Shown piece after piece: positions 3,800-47,085 of a stretch of DNA of 64,000 nt. This DNA is from a virus (lineage: Duplodnaviria > Caudoviricetes). A program made the position numbers and the translations under genes. The first letter of the stretch is position 1, and the number at the start of each line of letters is the position of its first letter. The stretch lies in IMG/VR virus record IMGVR_UViG_3300005614_001084, positions 96,001-160,000 of that record. One strand, given 5' to 3'. The notes below the pieces were generated by a model. It was not told the DNA's origin. It ran no database searches and was given only the letters and a program-made list of their open reading frames with translations.

Positions 3800-3806
3800 C
3801 AGCGGG

Positions 3807-3835
3807 CAAAGAGATGGGGAGAAGCCCCAGTCTCT
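3807..3835 (-). terminator. putative intrinsic terminator closing array A
   Basis: GAGA(C)TGGGG-CTTCT-CCCCATCTC then TTTG. Confidence 0.55.
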
Positions 3836-4189
3836 GAGATCGGTACGACGCACATTCCATCCCGCGATCGTCTCCAACCCTACAACTCTCGTTCGTCATC
3901 GCTTCCATGCTCGGCCTAGGCCCGGCGCGTTAGCTTGAGACCCACCTGCTTACCCACGGTGGTCCTGGGTTACTGCGCCAAGCTGATCCCTCCCATGCTG
4001 CGCGCAACAAAGCTCGCGGCGCATCCGCGCGAGACTTACATCTCAACAACACCACCAGCTTTTCCGCGGTGGTCCCGGATCGATGCAGGTCTCGTCCCCT
4101 GCCAGGAGGCCCGACCTTCTCACGTAGACTTCCGTCGTCGGCCCTTTCCGTTCATCACACAGCGCCGGCTTACCCGCGGCGTTCCGGGA
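3836..4189 (-). ncRNA. array A: 3 pseudoknot repeats with (GNNN)n tracts
   Basis: 28-nt repeats at 3942, 4052, 4162 (110-nt period); period-4 C on + strand, clearest at 3841-3934. Confidence 0.75.
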
Positions 4190-4481
4190 GCATCTTCGGT
4201 CTCACACGATGCGGGCCGTGCGGACACATCGTGAGGTCGATGGCTGGCCTGACGTCACCGCGCGAATCCATCCGATCGATGATGTTGTTGATGTCGCGCA
4301 CCTCATGCCCGGTATCGTCGAAGTGCGCCGCATCTTCGTGCGACTTGCCGCAGTGCGCGCAGAGGTCGTGAGCGTAGACACCTTCCATCTCAGCACCAGC
4401 CACGAACTCGTGCTGATCCCCGTACACATCACGGGCCAGGTTCCCGCCGCACTCCTCGCAGATGCACCTCACCTCGTTCAC
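4170..4481 (-). CDS. small Cys/His-rich protein
   Basis: CEEC, CAHC; GTGA overlap; stop TAA lies inside the 4162 repeat. Confidence 0.6.
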   Translation of the reverse strand: MNEVRCICEECGGNLARDVYGDQHEFVAGAEMEGVYAHDLCAHCGKSHEDAAHFDDTGHEVRDINNIIDRMDSRGDVRPAIDLTMCPHGPHRVRPKMLPERRG

Positions 4482-5116
4482 TTCGTGCTCCCCGGCTTCA
4501 CGCGTTCGAGCAAGAAGTCGAGGTCGGCGCAGTGATCGACTCCCCACATCTCTGCGGCCTCGGCGCGAAGCTTCGCGACGAAGGTGTCGGCCTCGGCGCG
4601 CAGGGCGTGCACCTTCTCGTACAGCTTCTCGGGATCACCCCACAGCTCGGCCTTCACCATCGCGGCGTTGACCCTGCGTCCCCGACCTCCCTTGCTTCTC
4701 GGCGGATCGATCTCCGCGCTGAGCCGCATCAGTCGGTACATCCCCTCGTTGATTTCGGTCGCGCCCTCGAACGCATCCCGAATCTCCTCCGCCAGCCACA
4801 TCGCCTGCTCTTCGCTCAGCGCCAGGCGCTCGACGAGCAGCGCAAGACCATCGGCATGCTTCTTCTCCCAGTCCAGCATCGTGGCGCGGCTCTTCTTCTC
4901 CTCCGCGATGCGGCATCTCTCCTCGTGCGCCGCGTAGTAGTAGTTCGCGCGCTCCACCGGATCACTACTCGCCGTGATCTCGATGCGAACGTCGTTGAAC
5001 ACCAAGACCTCGGTGTTGCCGGTGCGCTTCGCCTCTTCCACCACCGCTTTCGTCGCATCGGTGATCCACCCCAGGGTGTGGATGGTGCCGTCTTCCCTCC
5101 GATACAGTCGAAACAT
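4478..5116 (-). CDS. hypothetical protein
   Basis: CTATAAG + GGAGG then ATG 5116. Confidence 0.75.
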   Translation of the reverse strand: MFRLYRREDGTIHTLGWITDATKAVVEEAKRTGNTEVLVFNDVRIEITASSDPVERANYYYAAHEERCRIAEEKKSRATMLDWEKKHADGLALLVERLALSEEQAMWLAEEIRDAFEGATEINEGMYRLMRLSAEIDPPRSKGGRGRRVNAAMVKAELWGDPEKLYEKVHALRAEADTFVAKLRAEAAEMWGVDHCADLDFLLERVKPGSTK

Positions 5117-5131
5117 CTCTACCTCCAAGAT

Positions 5132-5138
5132 CTTATAG
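5132..5138 (-). promoter_or_regulatory. CTAT(A/C)AG phage promoter motif (representative of ~20 copies)
   Basis: Recurs just upstream of RBS/start codons on both strands; list in findings. Confidence 0.65.
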
Positions 5139-5141
5139 GGC

Positions 5142-5167
5142 AAAAAGAACACGCCAAAGCGTGTTCT
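5142..5167 (-). terminator. intrinsic terminator closing array B
   Basis: AGAACACGC-TTTG-GCGTGTTCT-TTTT. Confidence 0.75.
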
Positions 5168-5930
5168 AGATGCCAAGCGGATGCCCTCACCCTCCAGCGA
5201 TCACACGAAGCAGACGCGCCTTTCTACCCTCCATCTCTCGTCGATACCACCGGCTTGCCCACGGTGGTCCTGGGTCATCGGCGGTATCACCGATCGCACA
5301 TTCTCCCGACTTCAAGACCCCCTATCCCCACCACTCGCGACGCAGTCGAACGTGCCTTCGCACTTGCGTGTCTTCCTACCGCCAGCCACCAAGATCATCG
5401 TTACTGCGGTACCCACCTGCTTAGCCGCGGTGGTCCCGGAGCGACGCGCGAAAGTCCGAGCGTCCGTACCTTCCGCCTGGTTGCCGACCCCTCGTTCATC
5501 CCTGACCGAACCGCGCCAGCTTACCGGCGGCGCACCCGGATCAACACAGAGCGCGGACCTCCACGCCCACCCATCTTCTCACGCCATCCACTTCCACTCG
5601 CCGCCCGTCCAAGTGTGCGAACGGTCGATCTCGCCGCTTACCCGCGCGTATCCGGGATGATCTGAAAAACTTTCCTTCCCACAGCCAGGTCCCCGTTCCG
5701 TCTTCCGTGACAACCTGTACCCGTACTTTCAGCACAACACCTTCTACGTACTACGTCCTGATCTCAGAACATACTCGATCCCACCGTCTTATCGGAGGTG
5801 GGCCCCGAGATCGCAATGACTGGCGGGCGTGCTCAGACCACTGCCGTCTTCCTTCGCATCCACCGCCTGTTCATTCTCTCGAATCACCAAACAGAAGGTC
5901 CAACGCCTGCTTACCCGCGGTCGTCCGGGT
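5168..5930 (-). ncRNA. array B: 6 pseudoknot repeats with (GNNN)n tracts
   Basis: Repeats at 5247, 5413, 5513, 5630, 5781, 5903; period-4 register in all tracts. Confidence 0.8.
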
Positions 5931-6522
5931 TGATCTCGACGTCGTACATACGTCCGGCGTCGCTCTTCGGCTGCGCGTCGGGCGCCATGCTGAAGCTGAG
6001 GAGGTTGTCGCAGTCCTCGTCCTCACCGTTGTCCCGCTGCACGTCGAGCGTGACGTGACCTTCGAGCGTACGACCCGCAGTGATGACGATGTCGCCGACC
6101 TCGAAGATCAGAAGGTCCTGGTCCGCCCTACGGTCGGTGATGAGTAGCATGAGCTTGGGCGTCTGCACCGCGATGGGGTTGGGCTGTGTTGGCGCCACCA
6201 ACCGATCTGCGAGCCACATCGCACGCTCCTCTCCCGTCCACGCCATGTACTGAGGAGGCTTCAGCCCACACATCCGCAGCGCCGCGGTGACCTCCGCGCG
6301 TCGAGACGCGTGCGGGCTCATCGCCCCCTCCAGCCAGTACTCGCGCAGTCGGTGCTGGATGCTCTTGCGCGCGTTGTCGAGCGTCTCGCTCGCCAGCTTC
6401 ACCTCGTTGACGGCGAAGCTGAGTTCGTTGATGTCGGCGGCCCGTTTCTCGCGAAGCTCTTCCTGAGCCTTCTCGATCGTGCCCTCTACTTCGTCGACGG
6501 TTCGATCTTGCCATTCACCCAT
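5911..6522 (-). CDS. hypothetical protein
   Basis: CTATAAG + GGAGG then ATG 6522; stop TAA inside the 5903 repeat. Confidence 0.75.
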   Translation of the reverse strand: MGEWQDRTVDEVEGTIEKAQEELREKRAADINELSFAVNEVKLASETLDNARKSIQHRLREYWLEGAMSPHASRRAEVTAALRMCGLKPPQYMAWTGEERAMWLADRLVAPTQPNPIAVQTPKLMLLITDRRADQDLLIFEVGDIVITAGRTLEGHVTLDVQRDNGEDEDCDNLLSFSMAPDAQPKSDAGRMYDVEINPDDRG

Positions 6523-6546
6523 GTGTTCCTCCAAGATCTTATAGGC

Positions 6547-6569
6547 AAAAAGGAAGGCTGTCCTTCCTT
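6547..6569 (-). terminator. intrinsic terminator closing array C
   Basis: AAGGAAGG-ACAG-CCTTCCTT-TTT. Confidence 0.7.
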
Positions 6570-6964
6570 CGTCCGTACTGGACTTCGTACAACCGACGAA
6601 ATACTCGAATCCTTCATTCGTCCAGCTATTTCATCAGCCAACACTTCCTTAGATCACCACCTGCTTGCCAGCGGTGGTCCCCGGATAGATCGAGCCTGTT
6701 CCTCAGATCATCAGCTACAGCAGTACCGCCAAGCGCTGCTTCGTCTCTCCATTCATTCCTGTGATCGTTCCTGCAATCCCTAGGAACCAGCCGTCCTCCC
6801 CAACTTCACCCCTCCGCTAGAGCGCCACCTGCTTACCTGCGGTGGCCCCAGGAGCTTCAGATCGGGACACCCGACATAGCTACTTGATTCCTGTCCGACT
6901 AACTAACGGGGCATCAGTCGTTGCAACTGTCCGCCGTCCTCAGCTTGCCGGCGAGGTATCCGGG
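6570..6964 (-). ncRNA. array C: 3 pseudoknot repeats with (GNNN)n tracts
   Basis: Repeats at 6657, 6825, 6937. Confidence 0.8.
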
Positions 6965-7446
6965 TACGATCGCGTCTCCACGCCTTCGCGCGGATGCACG
7001 CCGACGATATCGAGCAGCATGGAATCGGGGAACCTCTGCTGCACGAACTTGACGGTGTCGCGGCGCGCCAGCTCGACGTCTGCCGGCAGCATGTAGTCGG
7101 ACACCTCTTCACCGCTGTGCCACGTACAGGCGCCCTCGAAGAAGTAGCTCAGTGCTGCCATCGGCGATTTCTCGATCAGCTTGATCGCCGCAACTTCCAG
7201 CTCTGCAAGAGAGGAGAGCGGGAAGTCAGGACAGGTGTCGTCCGTTCGAACGAGCTGACGTGCCGCAGTCCGAACCTCTTCGTACTGCACCAAGGTGCTG
7301 AGCACCGAACCCACTGCACACCGTGCGCAGAAGGGCAACTGCGACGGGAACTGCGCCGTGCCGAACCACGCCCCGGGCCGCAACTGCTCGATGGGTTCGT
7401 TCTCCAGCGCGTCGATGATCTGAGCCTTTGTCACCACGATGAGCAT
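6940..7446 (-). CDS. hypothetical protein
   Basis: GGAGG then ATG 7446; stop inside the 6937 repeat. Confidence 0.7.
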   Translation of the reverse strand: MLIVVTKAQIIDALENEPIEQLRPGAWFGTAQFPSQLPFCARCAVGSVLSTLVQYEEVRTAARQLVRTDDTCPDFPLSSLAELEVAAIKLIEKSPMAALSYFFEGACTWHSGEEVSDYMLPADVELARRDTVKFVQQRFPDSMLLDIVGVHPREGVETRSYPDTSPAS

Positions 7447-7454
7447 GTCGCCTC

Positions 7455-8033
7455 CTAACATCCGTCGTCGAGATCAGAGTCACCCACGCGTCGCTCCGCC
7501 AGATGACGAAGCTCCGCCGCCTCCTCCGCGCTGAGCGGTTCGAGCTGCGCCTTCACGCGCAACGTCTCGTAGCGCGCACCCTCATCTGCGGGGAGGGCCA
7601 CCCAGGTCAATACGCCTTTCTTGATGTCATAGATCTGATCGAAGCCGAAGCGTCGCATCATGACATCAACGGGATTGCCCGCGATCTCGTAGTCGCCCGC
7701 CGTAGCCTTGAGCACGTTGTCGATGGCGGGATGGATCTCCGACACACCACCGACGCCGTACCTGATGCTGTACAGCATGCCGCGCGTACGACTGAGCGCC
7801 TCGAAGAGCTTCGCCGACAGCTCGACCGCGGCCTTGAGACGATTGCCGATCGTGGTGGTGACGACCACGGGCTTGCCATGCTTCGCCTCGTACTGCTCCA
7901 CAATGCCCTCGATCGTACCGTCGATATGATCTCTGGCGAAGTCGGGCAGCTTGTCGTAGTCGCGCCCAAAGGGCCCGCCCAGCGGGCCACCGAGCAACGC
8001 CATGCGCAGCAGTTCCACCTCACGCTTCGTCAT
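7455..8033 (-). CDS. hypothetical protein
   Basis: ATGA-coupled start MTKREVELL. Confidence 0.7.
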   Translation of the reverse strand: MTKREVELLRMALLGGPLGGPFGRDYDKLPDFARDHIDGTIEGIVEQYEAKHGKPVVVTTTIGNRLKAAVELSAKLFEALSRTRGMLYSIRYGVGGVSEIHPAIDNVLKATAGDYEIAGNPVDVMMRRFGFDQIYDIKKGVLTWVALPADEGARYETLRVKAQLEPLSAEEAAELRHLAERRVGDSDLDDGC

Positions 8034-8347
8034 AGTCCCCTTCCTCGCTCCTGGATCTCGGCCGACTGACGGCTCATGATCTTCTCCGCCTCTTTGATGC
8101 GCCGGGCGGTACTCGCGTTGAGGCTCAGCGTTCTGTACAACACGGCGAACGTGACTGAGTTGCACGCCAAGCCGATCGGAATACCAACACGCGGCGCCCC
8201 GGTACTCCACCACAAGGCGAAGGCTGTCAGGGAAAGCAAGCCGGAGATCGCACACAGCGCAGCGCACACGATCATGCCGGCGGTGATTCCGCGCTCAGCC
8301 TTCTCTTCAACTTCGAGTGGTTTCTCGCTCTCTCTGTACGGCATCAC
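8030..8347 (-). CDS. small membrane protein (2 TM)
   Basis: Two hydrophobic stretches. Confidence 0.65.
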   Translation of the reverse strand: MMPYRESEKPLEVEEKAERGITAGMIVCAALCAISGLLSLTAFALWWSTGAPRVGIPIGLACNSVTFAVLYRTLSLNASTARRIKEAEKIMSRQSAEIQERGRGL

Positions 8348-8850
8348 GCCTCCTCGATCTTGCCGCGCACTGGGCGCGGCGTGAGCATCACGTGCGGCTT
8401 CGGGTTGTGAATGAAGGTTCGATTGAAGTCCTCGTTCTCCACTTCAGCGATCGCCGCGGCTTCGGCTGCGATGGTGTGGAGCCAGCGCTCTGCGAACAGC
8501 ACCTGCTCCTTCGTCAGGACCAGTAGGCAGGGCCAGCATACGACGTTGTAGAGACCACTAGGCCTCGACTCGATGTCGCGCAGCGTGTCGATGAAGCCCT
8601 CGACCTGCGTCGCGAAGATGTAGAGCGTGGAGTCGAAGAACGGGGTCGAGAAGCGGTGCGCACCGATGCGCATCACGCCTCCGCCATCCAGCGCCACACT
8701 GCTGATCTCCTGCTTTGCCCATGGCTCCAGGTCGGGGTCTTCGCGCCATCGAGGCTCCTTGATGGCCAGGGCCTCGTCGCTGATCCACATCGGAGAGACG
8801 CAGCGCCGGCCTTCGCGAGCGTTCTCCGGCTTCACCAGCCACCACTTCAT
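8344..8850 (-). CDS. hypothetical protein
   Basis: Start MKWWLVK coupled to upstream stop. Confidence 0.65.
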   Translation of the reverse strand: MKWWLVKPENAREGRRCVSPMWISDEALAIKEPRWREDPDLEPWAKQEISSVALDGGGVMRIGAHRFSTPFFDSTLYIFATQVEGFIDTLRDIESRPSGLYNVVCWPCLLVLTKEQVLFAERWLHTIAAEAAAIAEVENEDFNRTFIHNPKPHVMLTPRPVRGKIEEA

Positions 8851-20196: not shown

Positions 20197-20223
20197 GGTT
20201 CCTCCACGAACTGATAGCTGATC

Positions 20224-31160: not shown

Positions 31161-31506
31161 GTTTCTCCTTCTGCTGATAGAGGATCTCGCCCTGTTTCAC
31201 GTAGTACTCCGAGGCGCCCGGGCACTGCCGGTGGTGCTCGACGTCGCGCTCCTCCGTCCCTGCGCCGTACACGCTGGCGTGGCAGGCGAAGTCGCCTCCC
31301 ATCATGTCGCGCTCCCGCTTCACCTCGTCGCGCGCCCACTGGATCTCTTCGTCCGTGACGGGACGTGGGTCGTGGTTCTTCTGTCGCAGCTTGGTGAGGA
31401 TGGTGCCGAACTGCTTGTTGTTGTCGGTGCCGAAGGGGCAGCCCGCGCACGCTCCGCCTTCTCTCGGCGGCAGGCGCGGTCTCCAGAGCTTACGGTGATT
31501 GTTCAT
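31126..31506 (-). CDS. Cys-containing hypothetical protein
   Basis: CAGCPF..FACH..CPG. Confidence 0.65.
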   Translation of the reverse strand: MNNHRKLWRPRLPPREGGACAGCPFGTDNNKQFGTILTKLRQKNHDPRPVTDEEIQWARDEVKRERDMMGGDFACHASVYGAGTEERDVEHHRQCPGASEYYVKQGEILYQQKEKHAERTRRKRSA

Positions 31507-34715: not shown

Positions 34716-34892
34716 AGACGCTGGGAGGACTTGAACCTCCAAGGGCACCGGGACTCGAACACCAGGGGGTTTGCTTTTGGTATTACAACTTTGAGATCAG
34801 TGGCCGCGGGCAAGTAGAGGTGCGGCATGAACTCTTCAGACCCTGATGATCTTCGCCTTCGATGTTGTTCCCTCATCACCTGATTCAGCGCC
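34716..34892 (-). ncRNA. tRNA-like RNA (acceptor stem + T-arm, no canonical D-arm)
   Basis: GGCGCTG/CAGCGTC and GGAGG-TTCAAGT-CCTCC. Confidence 0.4.
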
Positions 34893-34894
34893 GA

Positions 34895-35281
34895 TGGACC
34901 TGCCGGGAATCGAACCCGGGTCCGCGATTGCTTCTTCTGTGCGTCTACGTGCGTAGCAGCGCTCTTACGCCTTGATAACGGAGTGCGTGAGCTGCGTTGC
35001 CTGCTCTCTCCGAGGGATGCACGGTTGCCCGCGAATCCTCCACCATCGATCAGATCTACTGCCGCGGCCTCTCACACTGATCGCACTGTGAGAGGTTGTG
35101 CCGACTTGAATGACGTCGGGATAGGCGAATCGGACCACCTACCCCAACGGCTCAGGCCGCTCGGGCCTGGGCGTAGCTCGAATCGTTCGCAGCTACAGAT
35201 GATCGGCTTTTAGAGGAGCCCACCGATCAACTCCTGCACGCAACACAGTCGTCGTCAACCACGTCGAAACCTGTCAGGCCC
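34895..35281 (-). ncRNA. ssrA: tmRNA, tag ANDSSYAQARAA*
   Basis: 5' GGGCCTGACAGGTTTCGAC; 3' GGACCCGGGTTCGATTCCCGGCAGGTCCA; G3-U pair; tag ORF 35190-35152. Confidence 0.92.
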
Positions 35282-39387: not shown

Positions 39388-39427
39388 TGGAGCACCTCCG
39401 TGTTCGCCTGCTGATAGCCGAAATCGA

Positions 39428-42895: not shown

Positions 42896-42967
42896 AGATC
42901 TCCTCACATGCTGATACGCGAAACACGAAGAGAAGCGGAAAAGGCCTATCAGCAAGCGGAGGAAACG

Positions 42968-46381: not shown

Positions 46382-47010
46382 GGAGTCTCCTTGTGGATCA
46401 GCTCGTGGTTGGCGGTGTTGGGGTCGACGAAGGCACGGAACATCTCCATCGCGGCGCGGTGGCAGATGCCTTCGATGTCTTGGGCGTAGAGCGTGTAGAC
46501 CGAGTGCTCGGGCTCCAGGTGGTTCTCCTCCTGTGGCCTCAGCTTCTCGTGAAGGATCTCCCGGAGCTTCAGCGCGACGACGGTGAGCCGGTCCTGGATC
46601 TCCGGATCCTCCAACGTTCCCTTCACCTCGACCTCGGTGGGGATCGGAGGAGCGAAGCCACGAAGCCATTGCTTCGCCATCTCCGCAGCAAGACCGAGGA
46701 TCGAGGCGTAGGCCTTCGCCGTCAGCACTCCTCCTCGATCGTTGTAGTTCTGTGCTTCCTTGAGGATCGCCTCCTCAGCTCGATCGAGAAGATCCTTGGT
46801 CTTCATCCCCGCGTTGGCAGGGATCTTACCGGAGGCGATGCCTACGGCCAGCATCACCTCTGCGATCGCCTCCAGCATCACCTGAGTGTTGCCTTTCTCG
46901 CAGTGGGCTCTGACGAGCTTCTGAGCTTCAGCACTCAGCACGCCGTAGGCTCGAAGCACCCCGCCTATCCTGGACTCAGTCACGGCCGTCTCCCCATTCC
47001 TCCCCAACAT
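46378..47010 (-). CDS. hypothetical protein
   Basis: ORF. Confidence 0.7.
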   Translation of the reverse strand: MLGRNGETAVTESRIGGVLRAYGVLSAEAQKLVRAHCEKGNTQVMLEAIAEVMLAVGIASGKIPANAGMKTKDLLDRAEEAILKEAQNYNDRGGVLTAKAYASILGLAAEMAKQWLRGFAPPIPTEVEVKGTLEDPEIQDRLTVVALKLREILHEKLRPQEENHLEPEHSVYTLYAQDIEGICHRAAMEMFRAFVDPNTANHELIHKETP

Positions 47011-47085
47011 CCTTACTTACTGTCATCTCGTCTCTCTTTCACTCGTATAAGGGTCTGTGGATAGCTGTGTCAAGGAAATGGTGTG

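What the first reader, a model, noticed from the sequence alone, without database searches (positions are those of the whole stretch)
5168..6936. Period-4 G register in the variable tracts
Hand counts of + strand C (= G in the RNA) at every 4th base: 13/15 at 5445-5501; 19/30 at 5662-5778 (never G); 16/23 at 5812-5900; 15/21 at 6855-6935 versus 11/63 at other positions of that spacer; 10/13 at 9527-9575; 21/30 at 11259-11375. Some tracts have a single phase slip (5206->5211, 3869->3874, 6606->6611, 11568->11570). The tract at 3970-4051 is the weakest. Period 4 cannot come from codon bias, and the intervening triplets do not repeat, so this is not a microsatellite. It looks like an information-bearing scaffold.
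Basis: seen in the sequence. Interest (0 to 1): 0.9.

Follow-up and report, generated by a model that had tools for sequence, protein, structure and literature searches.

The report
Four-base-repeat guide RNAs of a phage RAMP system
The G at every fourth base is real: it marks long non-coding RNAs that appear to be read by a phage Cas7-like protein in the manner of the recently described VIPR systems, but in 4-base units instead of the published 5-base units, so the recognition code would differ.

Summary
All hand counts are exact. Six tracts stay significant after correction for phase choice (shuffle p 5e-5 to 2.5e-3). All four phase slips are reproduced.

A period-4 HMM scan of the whole 172-kb phage genome finds such tracts on one strand only. 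Six of its seven segments lie in the five arrays at window 3830-11630.

The tracts are G-rich, C-poor and unstructured. On the minus-strand RNA each follows a covarying 27-nt pseudoknot, inside promoter-gene-array-terminator cassettes.

The gene just upstream of array E (11669-12775, minus) folds as a winged-helix domain fused to a Cas7/Csm3-type RAMP. It is the only gene shared with related phage contigs. In most of them it is followed by 0.4-1.6 kb of unrelated non-coding DNA that also shows period-4 G (z up to 19). One distant relative instead carries a pentamer array (KCG/NN).

This matches VIPR systems (bioRxiv, 2026). There, one RAMP protomer binds each short RNA repeat, hides the fixed bases and presents the variable ones to DNA. 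Every published VIPR repeat is pentameric.

Verdict: a tetranucleotide (GNNN) variant of a known kind. RNA expression, protein binding and targets are inferred; no target was found. The scan also noted (GNNN)n in another genome, which I did not check.

The parts
11669..12775 (-). Gene for a 368-aa protein: N-terminal winged helix, helical linker, then a C-terminal RAMP (Cas7/Csm3-like) domain with the G-loop RRGLSPARGTRYG. A CTATCAG promoter-like motif lies at 12807-12821.
   Evidence: AF2 model pLDDT 76. Foldseek PDB E 5e-7, prob 1.0 to Cas7-11, Cmr4, Csm3 and type VII Cas7. VIA Z 10.7 to Cmr4 and 10.3 to Csm3; Z 13 to the Pex/PadR wHTH. No Pfam or PHROG hit. It is the only gene conserved with related loci.
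11512..11630 (-). Unit E1: pseudoknot 11630-11600, then tract 11594-11512
   Evidence: Register G 16/22, z 3.1, two slips. PK pairs 4/4 and 5/5.
11424..11513 (-). Unit E2: pseudoknot 11513-11482, then tract 11476-11424 (no significant register)
   Evidence: Register G 7/13, z -0.5. PK 4/4 and 5/5.
11256..11417 (-). Unit E3: pseudoknot 11417-11387, then tract 11381-11256. It holds an in-phase duplication of ATATGACTGAAC at 16-nt spacing (11355-11344 and 11339-11328).
Evidence: Register G 21/31, z 6.5, no slip.
11228..11253 (-). Intrinsic terminator ending array E
   Evidence: Stem of 11 pairs followed by a T run.
9522..9609 (-). Unit D1: pseudoknot 9609-9579, overlapping the 3' end of ORF 9565-10677, then tract 9573-9522 and a terminator hairpin at about 9525-9505
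   Evidence: Register G 10/13, z 3.5. Sequence read.
6858..6966 (-). Unit C1: pseudoknot 6966-6937, overlapping the stop of ORF 6940-7461, then tract 6932-6858
Evidence: Register G 13/19, z 5.7.
6692..6855 (-). Unit C2: pseudoknot 6855-6825, then tract 6820-6692
   Evidence: Register G 22/33, z 3.8, two slips.
6572..6688 (-). Unit C3: pseudoknot 6688-6657, then tract 6652-6572, then terminator 6570-6553
   Evidence: Register G 13/20, z 3.2, slip at 6611/6606. Terminator.
5816..5932 (-). Unit B1: pseudoknot 5932-5903, overlapping the stop of ORF 5911-6534, then tract 5898-5816
Evidence: Register G 14/21, z 3.3.
5664..5811 (-). Unit B2: pseudoknot 5811-5781, then tract 5776-5664
Evidence: Register G 18/28, never C, z 4.3.
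5546..5659 (-). Unit B3: pseudoknot 5659-5630, then tract 5625-5546 (weak register)
   Evidence: Register G 13/20, z 1.5.
5446..5543 (-). Unit B4: pseudoknot 5543-5513, then tract 5508-5446
Evidence: Register G 14/16, z 4.4.
5284..5443 (-). Unit B5: pseudoknot 5443-5413, then tract 5408-5284
   Evidence: Register G 24/31, z 4.1, two slips.
5147..5277 (-). Unit B6: pseudoknot 5277-5247, then tract 5242-5168, then terminator hairpin 5166-5147 with a T run. The TATAAGATCT promoter-like motif of the next cassette follows at 5137-5128.
   Evidence: Register G 15/18, z 1.9, slip at 5211/5206. Sequence; motif.
4086..4191 (-). Unit A1: pseudoknot 4191-4162, then tract 4157-4086 (weak register)
   Evidence: Register G 12/18, z 1.7.
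3980..4082 (-). Unit A2: pseudoknot 4082-4052, then tract 4047-3980. There is no register, and it contains a terminator-like hairpin at 4029-4015.
Evidence: z -0.9. Hairpin.
3815..3972 (-). Unit A3: pseudoknot 3972-3942, then tract 3937-3832, then terminator 3829-3815
   Evidence: Register G 18/26, z 2.2, slip at 3874/3869. Terminator.

Best explanation
The period-4 tracts are the repeat part of vrRNA-like guide or scaffold RNAs. They belong to a VIPR-like, phage-encoded system whose protein is the wHTH-RAMP fusion at 11669-12775.

Proposed mechanism, by analogy with published VIPR complexes and with class 1 CRISPR backbones:
1. The minus strand is transcribed as promoter-gene-array-terminator cassettes.
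2. Each unit is a 27-nt H-type pseudoknot followed by 12-33 GNNN repeats.
3. RAMP protomers polymerise along the single-stranded tract, one per 4-nt repeat.
4. Each protomer sequesters the register base in a pocket that prefers G, tolerates U or A and excludes C.
5. The three variable bases are left exposed to recognise a nucleic-acid target, most likely DNA of a competing mobile element. The fused winged helix would supply the DNA contact that separate Vap proteins give in other VIPR types.

Shown here: the periodicity and its strand and locus specificity; the pseudoknot covariation; the RAMP fold; the conserved pairing of this gene family with period-4 (or, in one relative, period-5) non-coding DNA.

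Inferred: transcription and processing; one protomer per repeat; G sequestration; target recognition and its pairing rule.
For: 1. The periodicity is significant, confined to one strand, and confined to the arrays in the whole 172-kb genome.
2. Only the register position is fixed (G 71%, C 6%). The other three positions are near uniform, and no tract repeats another.
3. The tracts are G-rich, C-poor and not structured: MFE z is about 0, and -0.28 versus -0.33 kcal/mol/nt for the genome.
4. The adjacent protein has a Cas7/Csm3-type RAMP fold plus a wHTH.
5. This gene is the only one shared with related contigs. Downstream non-coding DNA of unrelated sequence shows period-4 G in L008 (z 10.5), L009 (10.4), L010 (9.3), L014 (8.9), L015 (19.1), L021 (11.7), L017 tract (6.5), L020 (4.0) and L005 (2.9).
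6. L016, a distant family member, has a pentamer array CGNNK, that is KCG/NN (C z 7.5, A z 9.8). This is the published VIPR architecture of three fixed plus two variable bases.
7. A model of canonical Vipr (SUSP1 clade, pLDDT 93) shares its five best viral structural neighbours and its best PDB chains (Csm3 9g9a_D and 6ae2_B, Cmr4 6s6b_I) with our RAMP domain, at similar scores.
8. Published mechanism (bioRxiv 10.64898/2026.04.26.720920 and .720927): one Vipr protomer per repeat; the fixed GGY is held by the G-loop and thumb with its guanines flipped; the variable NN pairs with DNA.
9. An in-phase 16-nt-spaced duplication in tract E3 suggests that tracts grow in whole units.
Against:
- No target was found under seven pairing rules in the phage's own genome or related loci, by blastn against isolated phages, or by four exact pattern scans.
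- Profile-profile comparison with the SUSP1 Vipr family is not significant (E 0.13), so common descent with Vipr rests on fold alone.
- The register phase is not locked to the pseudoknot on either side.
- The register G is only about 70% conserved, weaker than the GGY of SUSP1.
- Four of 16 tracts (E2, A2, B3, A1) have a weak register or none.
- The variable bases are 47% GC in a 63% GC phage, which could reflect a structural constraint rather than target content.
- Several family loci have coding DNA directly downstream and no clear array.
Confidence: 0.68

Rival explanations
1. The protein-RNA filament forms, but it is not a guide. On this reading the GNNN tracts are only an assembly or sequestration scaffold in the 3' UTRs. 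They might stabilise or regulate the cargo mRNAs in cis, or store or titrate the wHTH-RAMP protein. The NNN bases would then be free to drift.
For: Positions 2-4 are near uniform and no target was found. The arrays are embedded in the 3' UTRs of unrelated genes rather than standing alone. Tracts of 50-130 nt are much longer than the published 9-16 repeats. NNN has a lower GC content than the genome.
Against: In the one characterised system of this kind, the variable positions are the guide. The tracts are all different and turn over quickly: an 87%-identical protein (L018) is followed by unalignable downstream DNA, as expected for guides in an arms race. A pure scaffold could be a simple repeat. 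Related phages have stand-alone promoter-pseudoknot-tract-terminator units (L005).
Confidence: 0.15
2. The system is RNA-guided but targets RNA, as the type III Cas7/Csm3 backbone does. The filament would bind or cleave transcripts of the host or of rival phages rather than silence DNA.
For: The best structural matches are RNA-targeting Csm3, Cmr4 and Cas7-11. The tracts sit in sense orientation in mRNAs.
Against: The canonical DNA-binding Vipr model hits the same Csm3 and Cmr4 chains equally well, so the fold does not discriminate. The fused winged helix (PadR/Pex-like, Z 13) points to dsDNA contact. I could not check for a catalytic Asp, because no residue-level alignment was available.
Confidence: 0.08
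3. The period is a DNA-level or mutational by-product with no RNA or protein function, for example a decayed tetranucleotide microsatellite, a replication-slippage product or a compositional artefact.
For: One in-phase duplication in E3 shows that slippage-type events do occur.
Against: A decayed microsatellite would keep a preferred base at all four positions; here only one is fixed. The signal is strand-specific and limited to the arrays. It recurs in unrelated sequence next to the same gene family in many lineages.
Confidence: 0.02
4. The tracts are decoded by the ribosome or another machine in 4-base steps (quadruplet reading), or they encode peptides once the register base is dropped.
Against: The triplets after the register base include stop codons; GTAG units occur several times. 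No tRNA genes are present in the genome. The register slips by +1 or -1 about once per 100 nt. The concatenated triplets match nothing in the sequences at hand.
Confidence: 0.01

Closest known systems
VIPR systems, type II (Escherichia phage SUSP1 and the Pseudomonas fulva prophage); bioRxiv 10.64898/2026.04.26.720920 and 10.64898/2026.04.26.720927
   Same: - A phage-encoded lone RAMP protein flanked by long non-coding regions.
- RNAs made of many short tandem units in which fixed guanine-containing positions alternate with hypervariable positions.
- A conserved pseudoknot cap.
- Several RNAs per locus.
- No cas1, cas2, cas6, cas8 or cas10.
- The same structural neighbours for the protein.
   Different: - The unit is 4 nt (GNNN, 1 fixed + 3 variable), not 5 nt (GGY/NN, 3 fixed + 2 variable). 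Autocorrelation peaks fall at 4, 8 and 12 versus 5 and 10 in SUSP1.
- Tracts have 12-33 units, not 9-16.
- The pseudoknot lies 5' of the tract, not in a 3' tail.
- The RAMP is fused to a winged helix instead of having a separate vap gene.
- The arrays are dispersed over 8 kb inside the 3' UTRs of unrelated genes.
- No detectable sequence-profile similarity to SUSP1 Vipr.
Non-canonical VIPR arrays: NNNGG, YNNNG and NNNNG; GAC/NN, CAC/NN, WGT/NN and TGH/NN (bioRxiv 10.64898/2026.10.21.760802)
   Same: The fixed motif can be degenerate, down to a single G (NNNNG). These arrays are associated with Vipr-like folds. The distant relative L016 of our family has such a pentamer array (KCG/NN).
   Different: All described variants keep a 5-nt period. 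In the Evo-PIN survey the periodic clusters fall at 5, 18 and 60-79 nt, and the listed outliers I saw are 7, 8 and 10 nt. None of the four held papers mentions a 4-nt class.
Class 1 CRISPR backbone filaments (Cas7, Csm3, Cmr4, Cas7-11)
   Same: The same RAMP fold (Foldseek E 5e-7, VIA Z about 10). In those complexes one protomer binds each fixed-length RNA segment, and a thumb flips one base per segment.
   Different: There the period is 6 nt (5 paired + 1 flipped) and no base is preferred at the flipped position. The guides come from arrays of identical 24-48-nt repeats with 30-40-nt spacers and need Cas5, Cas6 and large subunits. None of that is present here.

Membership tests
VIPR (Viral Interference Programmable Repeat) systems | A lone RAMP-fold protein (RRM core, G-loop, thumb) encoded by a virus | tested here: met
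   The AF2 model has a beta1-alpha1-beta2-beta3-alpha2-(G-loop)-beta4 core and Cas7/Csm3 matches. The genome is a 172-kb myovirus-like phage with tail sheath, ligase and helicase genes.
VIPR (Viral Interference Programmable Repeat) systems | The protein belongs to the Vipr clade, separate from Cas5, Cas6 and Cas7 | tested here: inconclusive
   hhalign of 58 family members against 23 SUSP1-clade Viprs gives E 0.13. However, both models share the same top-5 BFVD neighbours and the same best PDB chains. No phylogeny was possible.
VIPR (Viral Interference Programmable Repeat) systems | A minimal locus without a CRISPR array or other cas genes | tested here: met
   No Pfam or PHROG cas hits in neighbouring ORFs. 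Only the wHTH-RAMP gene is conserved across loci.
VIPR (Viral Interference Programmable Repeat) systems | vrRNA built of tandem pentanucleotide repeats (GGY/NN or a related 5-nt consensus) | tested here: not met
   The period is 4, not 5: period-5 z is -1.1 to +0.4 in all four arrays against period-4 z of 5.7-6.4 in arrays B, C and E, and lags 4, 8 and 12 against 5 and 10 in the SUSP1 control. The feature is met only in the distant relative L016.
VIPR (Viral Interference Programmable Repeat) systems | A variable repeat tract capped by a conserved structured element (a 3' tail with a pseudoknot in the SUSP1 clade) | tested here: inconclusive
   A covarying H-type pseudoknot is present in all 16 units (S1 64/64 pairs, S2 77/80). 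The array layout, and the promoter-pseudoknot-tract-terminator units in L005, place it 5' of the tract.
VIPR (Viral Interference Programmable Repeat) systems | An accessory DNA-interacting vap gene | tested here: inconclusive
   No conserved neighbouring gene. Instead a winged helix is fused to the RAMP (VIA Z 13 to Pex/PadR).
VIPR (Viral Interference Programmable Repeat) systems | vrRNAs are expressed and co-purify with the protein | not testable with these tools
VIPR (Viral Interference Programmable Repeat) systems | Variable bases match DNA of competing mobile elements under a fixed skip rule | tested here: inconclusive
   No match above null under seven rules in the phage's own genome and related loci, by blastn against 50,697 phage records, or in four exact pattern scans. 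The host and co-resident elements are unknown.
CRISPR-Cas class 1 (type III-like) | An array of near-identical 24-48-nt repeats with 30-40-nt spacers, plus cas5, cas6, cas10 or cas1-2 | tested here: not met
   The repeats conserve structure, not sequence (10 distinct S1 and 11 distinct S2 arm pairs). Spacers are 50-130 nt. No other cas gene was found.

The most novel reading that the evidence does not exclude
This would be a distinct RNA-guided recognition code. Each wHTH-RAMP protomer hides a single G and presents three consecutive bases. Targets would be read either as 3 paired + 1 skipped, which is a short-period version of the 5+1 class 1 CRISPR geometry, or as contiguous triplets. That would place the family as a structural intermediate between VIPR (2 read of 5) and Cas7 backbones (5 of 6). 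One DNA-binding winged helix per protomer would take the place of Vap or Cas8/Cas11.
Probability: 0.4. Interest if true: 0.85.

Novelty: new variant of a known kind. Interest (0 to 1): 0.78.

Why it matters
VIPR was described only in 2026. It is presented there as a pentanucleotide code and as a possible ancestor of CRISPR backbones.

A sizeable family of wHTH-RAMP proteins (166 clusters at 50% identity) has non-coding partners that mostly carry a 4-nt period, while at least one member carries a 5-nt period. This would show that the repeat length of such codes is evolvable. It would also provide a natural pair of closely related proteins for asking how a RAMP protomer sets its footprint.

A 1-fixed/3-variable unit carries more information per protomer than GGY/NN. 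If programmable, it would be a denser guide format.

It also bears on discovery methods. Searches for YNNGG repeats, or for a 5-nt period, would probably miss this class.

Tried and rejected
- **Known RNA families.** Rfam at gathering score finds only the tmRNA. An E-value scan of 3800-7000 gives only chance-level hits. No tRNAs are present.
- **Close relatives.** Megablast of 3800-12000 against phages gave no match. The search for related loci in IMG/VR with two proteins gave nothing. A pseudoknot-consensus pattern in IMG/VR gave 4 single chance hits without the pseudoknot. No family member exists in 185k species genomes.
- **Targets.** Seven pairing rules against the phage's own genome and five related loci gave only the trivial self hit. 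Seed-and-extend searches in both directions, under the 3+1 and 3+0 rules, were no better than a reversed-sequence null. blastn 'distant' of 5160-6960 against phages gave only E 0.5 hits, and those fell in coding DNA. Exact six- or seven-unit patterns gave 0 hits in IMG/VR (3+1 and 3+0), in metagenome contigs and in genome contigs.
- **Phase locking.** The register phase is not fixed relative to the pseudoknot on either side.
- **EM runs.** EM with a background state collapsed. The forced EM overfits: control coding DNA reaches 0.48 G at the register. I therefore rely on the shuffle z-scores.
- **Sequence homology to SUSP1 Vipr.** hhalign gave E 0.085 with a single sequence and E 0.13 profile against profile.
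- **Tool limits.** The alignment of 58 sequences was too divergent for the search for related loci.
- **Ideas considered and dropped.** CsrA/Hfq-type sponges, rut sites, type III toxin-antitoxin RNA arrays, attC sites, riboswitch pseudoknots and frameshift signals. None explains a strict 4-nt period linked to a RAMP gene.
Full report
**Observation**

All are exact, apart from one denominator: 11/60 off-phase C in 6855-6935, not 11/63.

Shuffles that keep each tract's composition and take the best of the four phases give p between <5e-5 and 2.5e-3 for the six tracts cited as positive.

Local Fourier power at period 4 exceeds shuffles by z 5.7 (array B), 6.4 (C) and 5.9 (E). Periods 2, 3, 5 and 6 are at background, and array A as a whole is not periodic.

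Read on the minus strand, the register position is G 71%, U 14%, A 8% and C 6%. The three positions between registers are close to uniform, with position 2 poor in C and position 3 poor in G.

A cyclic hidden Markov model with slips assigns G to 242 of 346 register positions. Twelve of the 16 tracts have z >= 1.9.

The window is bases 96001-160000 of a single 172,310-bp contig. I ran the same model over both strands of that genome. It finds nothing on the + strand. On the minus strand it finds 3 segments (strict settings) or 7 (loose). All lie inside the arrays except one 51-nt purine-rich stretch at 46997-47047.

**Anatomy**

The genome is a myovirus-like phage. It has tail sheath, DNA ligase and RecD-like helicase genes and a tmRNA gene, and no tRNA genes.

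Genes in this region run on the minus strand. On that strand there are 16 copies of a 27-31-nt element, grouped 3+1+3+6+3 between 11630 and 3942, and nowhere else in the genome.

Each copy folds as an H-type pseudoknot: a 4-bp stem 1, a 5-bp stem 2 and a conserved AAGC in loop 3. Stem 1 pairs in 64 of 64 positions with 10 different arm pairs. Stem 2 pairs in 77 of 80 positions with 11 different arm pairs. Re-pairing arms between copies never reaches these totals in 1000 permutations.

A variable tract of 50-130 nt follows each pseudoknot. Each array ends in an intrinsic terminator. A conserved TATAAGATCT motif followed by GGAGG, presumably the promoter and ribosome-binding site of the next cassette, comes directly after it.

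The first pseudoknot of an array overlaps or abuts the stop codon of the preceding gene. In the related contig L005, promoter-pseudoknot-tract-terminator units stand alone. I therefore read the pseudoknot as the 5' cap of each unit.

The tracts show no conserved fold. Their MFE z-scores scatter around zero, and they are slightly less structured than same-length genome samples. No Rfam family matches.

**The linked protein**

The gene immediately upstream of array E (11669-12775, minus strand, 368 aa) has no Pfam or PHROG hit.

An AlphaFold model built on 13 homologues (pLDDT 76) shows three parts:
- an N-terminal winged helix (VIA Z 13.2 to Pex, 10.1 to PadR);
- a helical linker;
- a C-terminal RAMP domain. 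Its Foldseek matches have E 5e-7 and probability 1.0 to Cas7-11, Cmr4, Csm3 and type VII Cas7; VIA Z is 10.7 to Cmr4 (6s6b_I) and 10.3 to Csm3 (9g9a_D).

The invariant motif GLSPARGxRxG sits where the RAMP glycine-rich loop belongs.

A profile search of 1.84 billion representatives finds 166 clusters, 124 of them at E <= 1e-10. Most are 340-440 aa and cover the whole length of the profile. None lies in 185,579 species genomes. The family is so far seen only in metagenomic contigs, several of them large and phage-like.

**Co-conservation**

Across nine contigs carrying homologues (25-56% identity), this gene is the only one shared with the window. In each contig it is followed by 0.26-1.6 kb without called genes.

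These gaps are G-rich and C-poor and cannot be aligned with the window. Most nevertheless show period-4 G:

| Locus | Period-4 G z-score |
|---|---|
| L015 | 19.1 |
| L021 | 11.7 |
| L008 | 10.5 |
| L009 | 10.4 |
| L010 | 9.3 |
| L014 | 8.9 |
| L017 (tract only) | 6.5 |
| L020 | 4.0 |
| L011 | 2.8-3.9 |
| L005 | 2.9 |

The capping structures differ between lineages. L005 has the same pseudoknot. L008 and L014 have hairpins with GGCCGAGATGG-type loops. L009 has CTCGCGAGAGG loops. L010 has a TAGAAC...GGACAA element.

A contig whose protein is 87% identical (L018) already has unalignable DNA between the stop codon and its first pseudoknot.

One distant member, L016 (30% identity), has no period-4 signal. 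It has instead a clear period-5 array of CGNNK units, that is KCG followed by two variable bases (C z 7.5, A z 9.8).

Several other loci have coding DNA directly downstream and no clear array. The association is therefore strong but not universal.

**Comparison with what is known**

Notes from earlier agents of this scan pointed me to 2026 preprints on VIPR systems, and I read those preprints myself.

VIPR loci are phage-encoded. [quoted passage not shown] The G-loop and thumb hold the flipped GGY bases. The NN bases pair with DNA, skipping one target base per repeat. Natural targets are satellites and prophages.

All seven published types, and the alternative consensuses NNNGG, YNNNG and NNNNG, are pentameric. 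A language-model survey of 376 million intergenic regions places VIPR-like arrays at period 5, with further non-canonical pentamers. The outlier periods I saw listed there are 7, 8 and 10 nt. None of the four held papers mentions a 4-nt unit.

As a positive control I took the SUSP1 locus from GenBank. Its array has autocorrelation peaks at lags 5 and 10, whereas the arrays here peak at 4, 8 and 12.

**Is the protein a Vipr?**

Profile-profile comparison of 58 family members with 23 SUSP1-clade Viprs is not significant (E 0.13). The VIPR authors themselves note that RAMPs share little sequence similarity.

Structurally, a high-confidence model of the SUSP1-clade Vipr (pLDDT 93) behaves like our RAMP domain in two ways:
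- Its five best neighbours among predicted viral structures are exactly the five best neighbours of our model.
- Its best solved-structure matches are the same Csm3 and Cmr4 chains, at similar Z.

Together with the pentamer array in L016, this places the family in VIPR-like territory. I do not file it as a member of a published VIPR type, because the defining pentanucleotide repeat was tested and is not met. It works like a VIPR, with a different unit length.

**Mechanism proposed**

By analogy, the wHTH-RAMP protein polymerises on each tract with a footprint of 4 nt. The register base sits in a pocket that prefers G and excludes C. Three bases per unit are displayed.

The most economical pairing rule, given that the thumb displaces one base on each strand in both VIPR and class 1 CRISPR complexes, is three paired bases plus one skipped target base. 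A contiguous-triplet rule is the main alternative.

The winged helix carried by every protomer would contact duplex DNA. All of this is inference.

I searched for targets under seven rules in the phage's own genome and related loci, by blastn against isolated phages, and with four exact pattern scans of the large collections. Nothing was found. The exact scans are insensitive and the host is unknown, so this negative result is weak. No-self-targeting is what the published systems show too.

**Points that do not fit neatly**

- The register G is only about 70% conserved.
- Four of the 16 tracts have little or no register.
- The register is not phase-locked to the pseudoknot.
- The variable bases are AT-richer (47% GC) than the genome (63%).
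- Tracts are two to three times longer than published vrRNAs.

These points leave room for the rival reading in which the filament is a scaffold or regulator of the cargo mRNAs rather than a guide.

**Verdict**

The period-4 register is real, specific and evolutionarily conserved. It is best explained as the repeat code of a tetranucleotide variant of VIPR-type RNAs read by a wHTH-fused RAMP protein. It is a new variant of a recently described kind, and it would be of high interest to people working on CRISPR origins and programmable nucleic-acid recognition. Another note of this scan (e1-5772286) reports (GNNN)n tracts beside a lone RAMP in a different genome; I did not check it.

Noticed in passing
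window 34892-35281 (-): A full-length tmRNA gene (Rfam 120.7 bits; tag peptide ANDSSYAQARAA) lies in a phage genome that carries no tRNA genes.
   Followed up: no
window 5128-5137, 6534-6543, 9488-9497, 13787-13796, 15773-15782 (-): There are five exact copies of TATAAGATCT, each just downstream of a terminator and just upstream of GGAGG and a start codon. This looks like a phage-specific (late-type?) promoter. The same motif occurs in the related contig L011 at about 12575-12590.
   Followed up: partly
window 12807-12821, 13368-13382, 20199-20217, 31163-31180, 39403-39417 (-), 42946-42964 (+): A CTATCAG...GAA motif occurs 7 times against 0.6 expected. One copy lies directly upstream of the wHTH-RAMP gene. 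In L005 the same motif precedes stand-alone pseudoknot-tract units. It is probably a second promoter class.
   Followed up: partly
L016 2721-3361: A distant member of the same protein family is followed by about 120 tandem pentamers CGNNK (= KCG/NN). This is a non-canonical VIPR-type array, so the family spans both 5-nt and 4-nt codes.
   Followed up: partly
L008 11320-12290; L014 2860-3200; L009 11440-12330; L010 4900-5830: Related phages cap or separate their period-4 tracts with other conserved elements instead of the pseudoknot. L008 and L014 have hairpins with GGCCG(A/T)GATGG loops. L009 has hairpins with CTCGCGAGAGG loops followed by T runs. L010 has four copies of a TAGAAC-stem-GGACAA-stem element.
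   Followed up: no
window 11328-11355 (-): Tract E3 contains ATATGACTGAAC twice, 16 nt apart and in register. This is a duplication of four whole units.
   Followed up: no
window 5900-5940 and similar sites upstream of most pseudoknots: A GATC (or GAAG) motif lies 2-4 nt upstream of most pseudoknots. It may be a processing site between units.
   Followed up: no
window 46997-47047 (-): This is the only period-4 HMM segment outside the arrays. It is a 51-nt purine-rich stretch and is probably a chance hit.
   Followed up: no
window 4015-4029 (-): A terminator-like hairpin lies inside tract A2, the tract without a register. Array A may therefore be partly decayed or organised differently.
   Followed up: no
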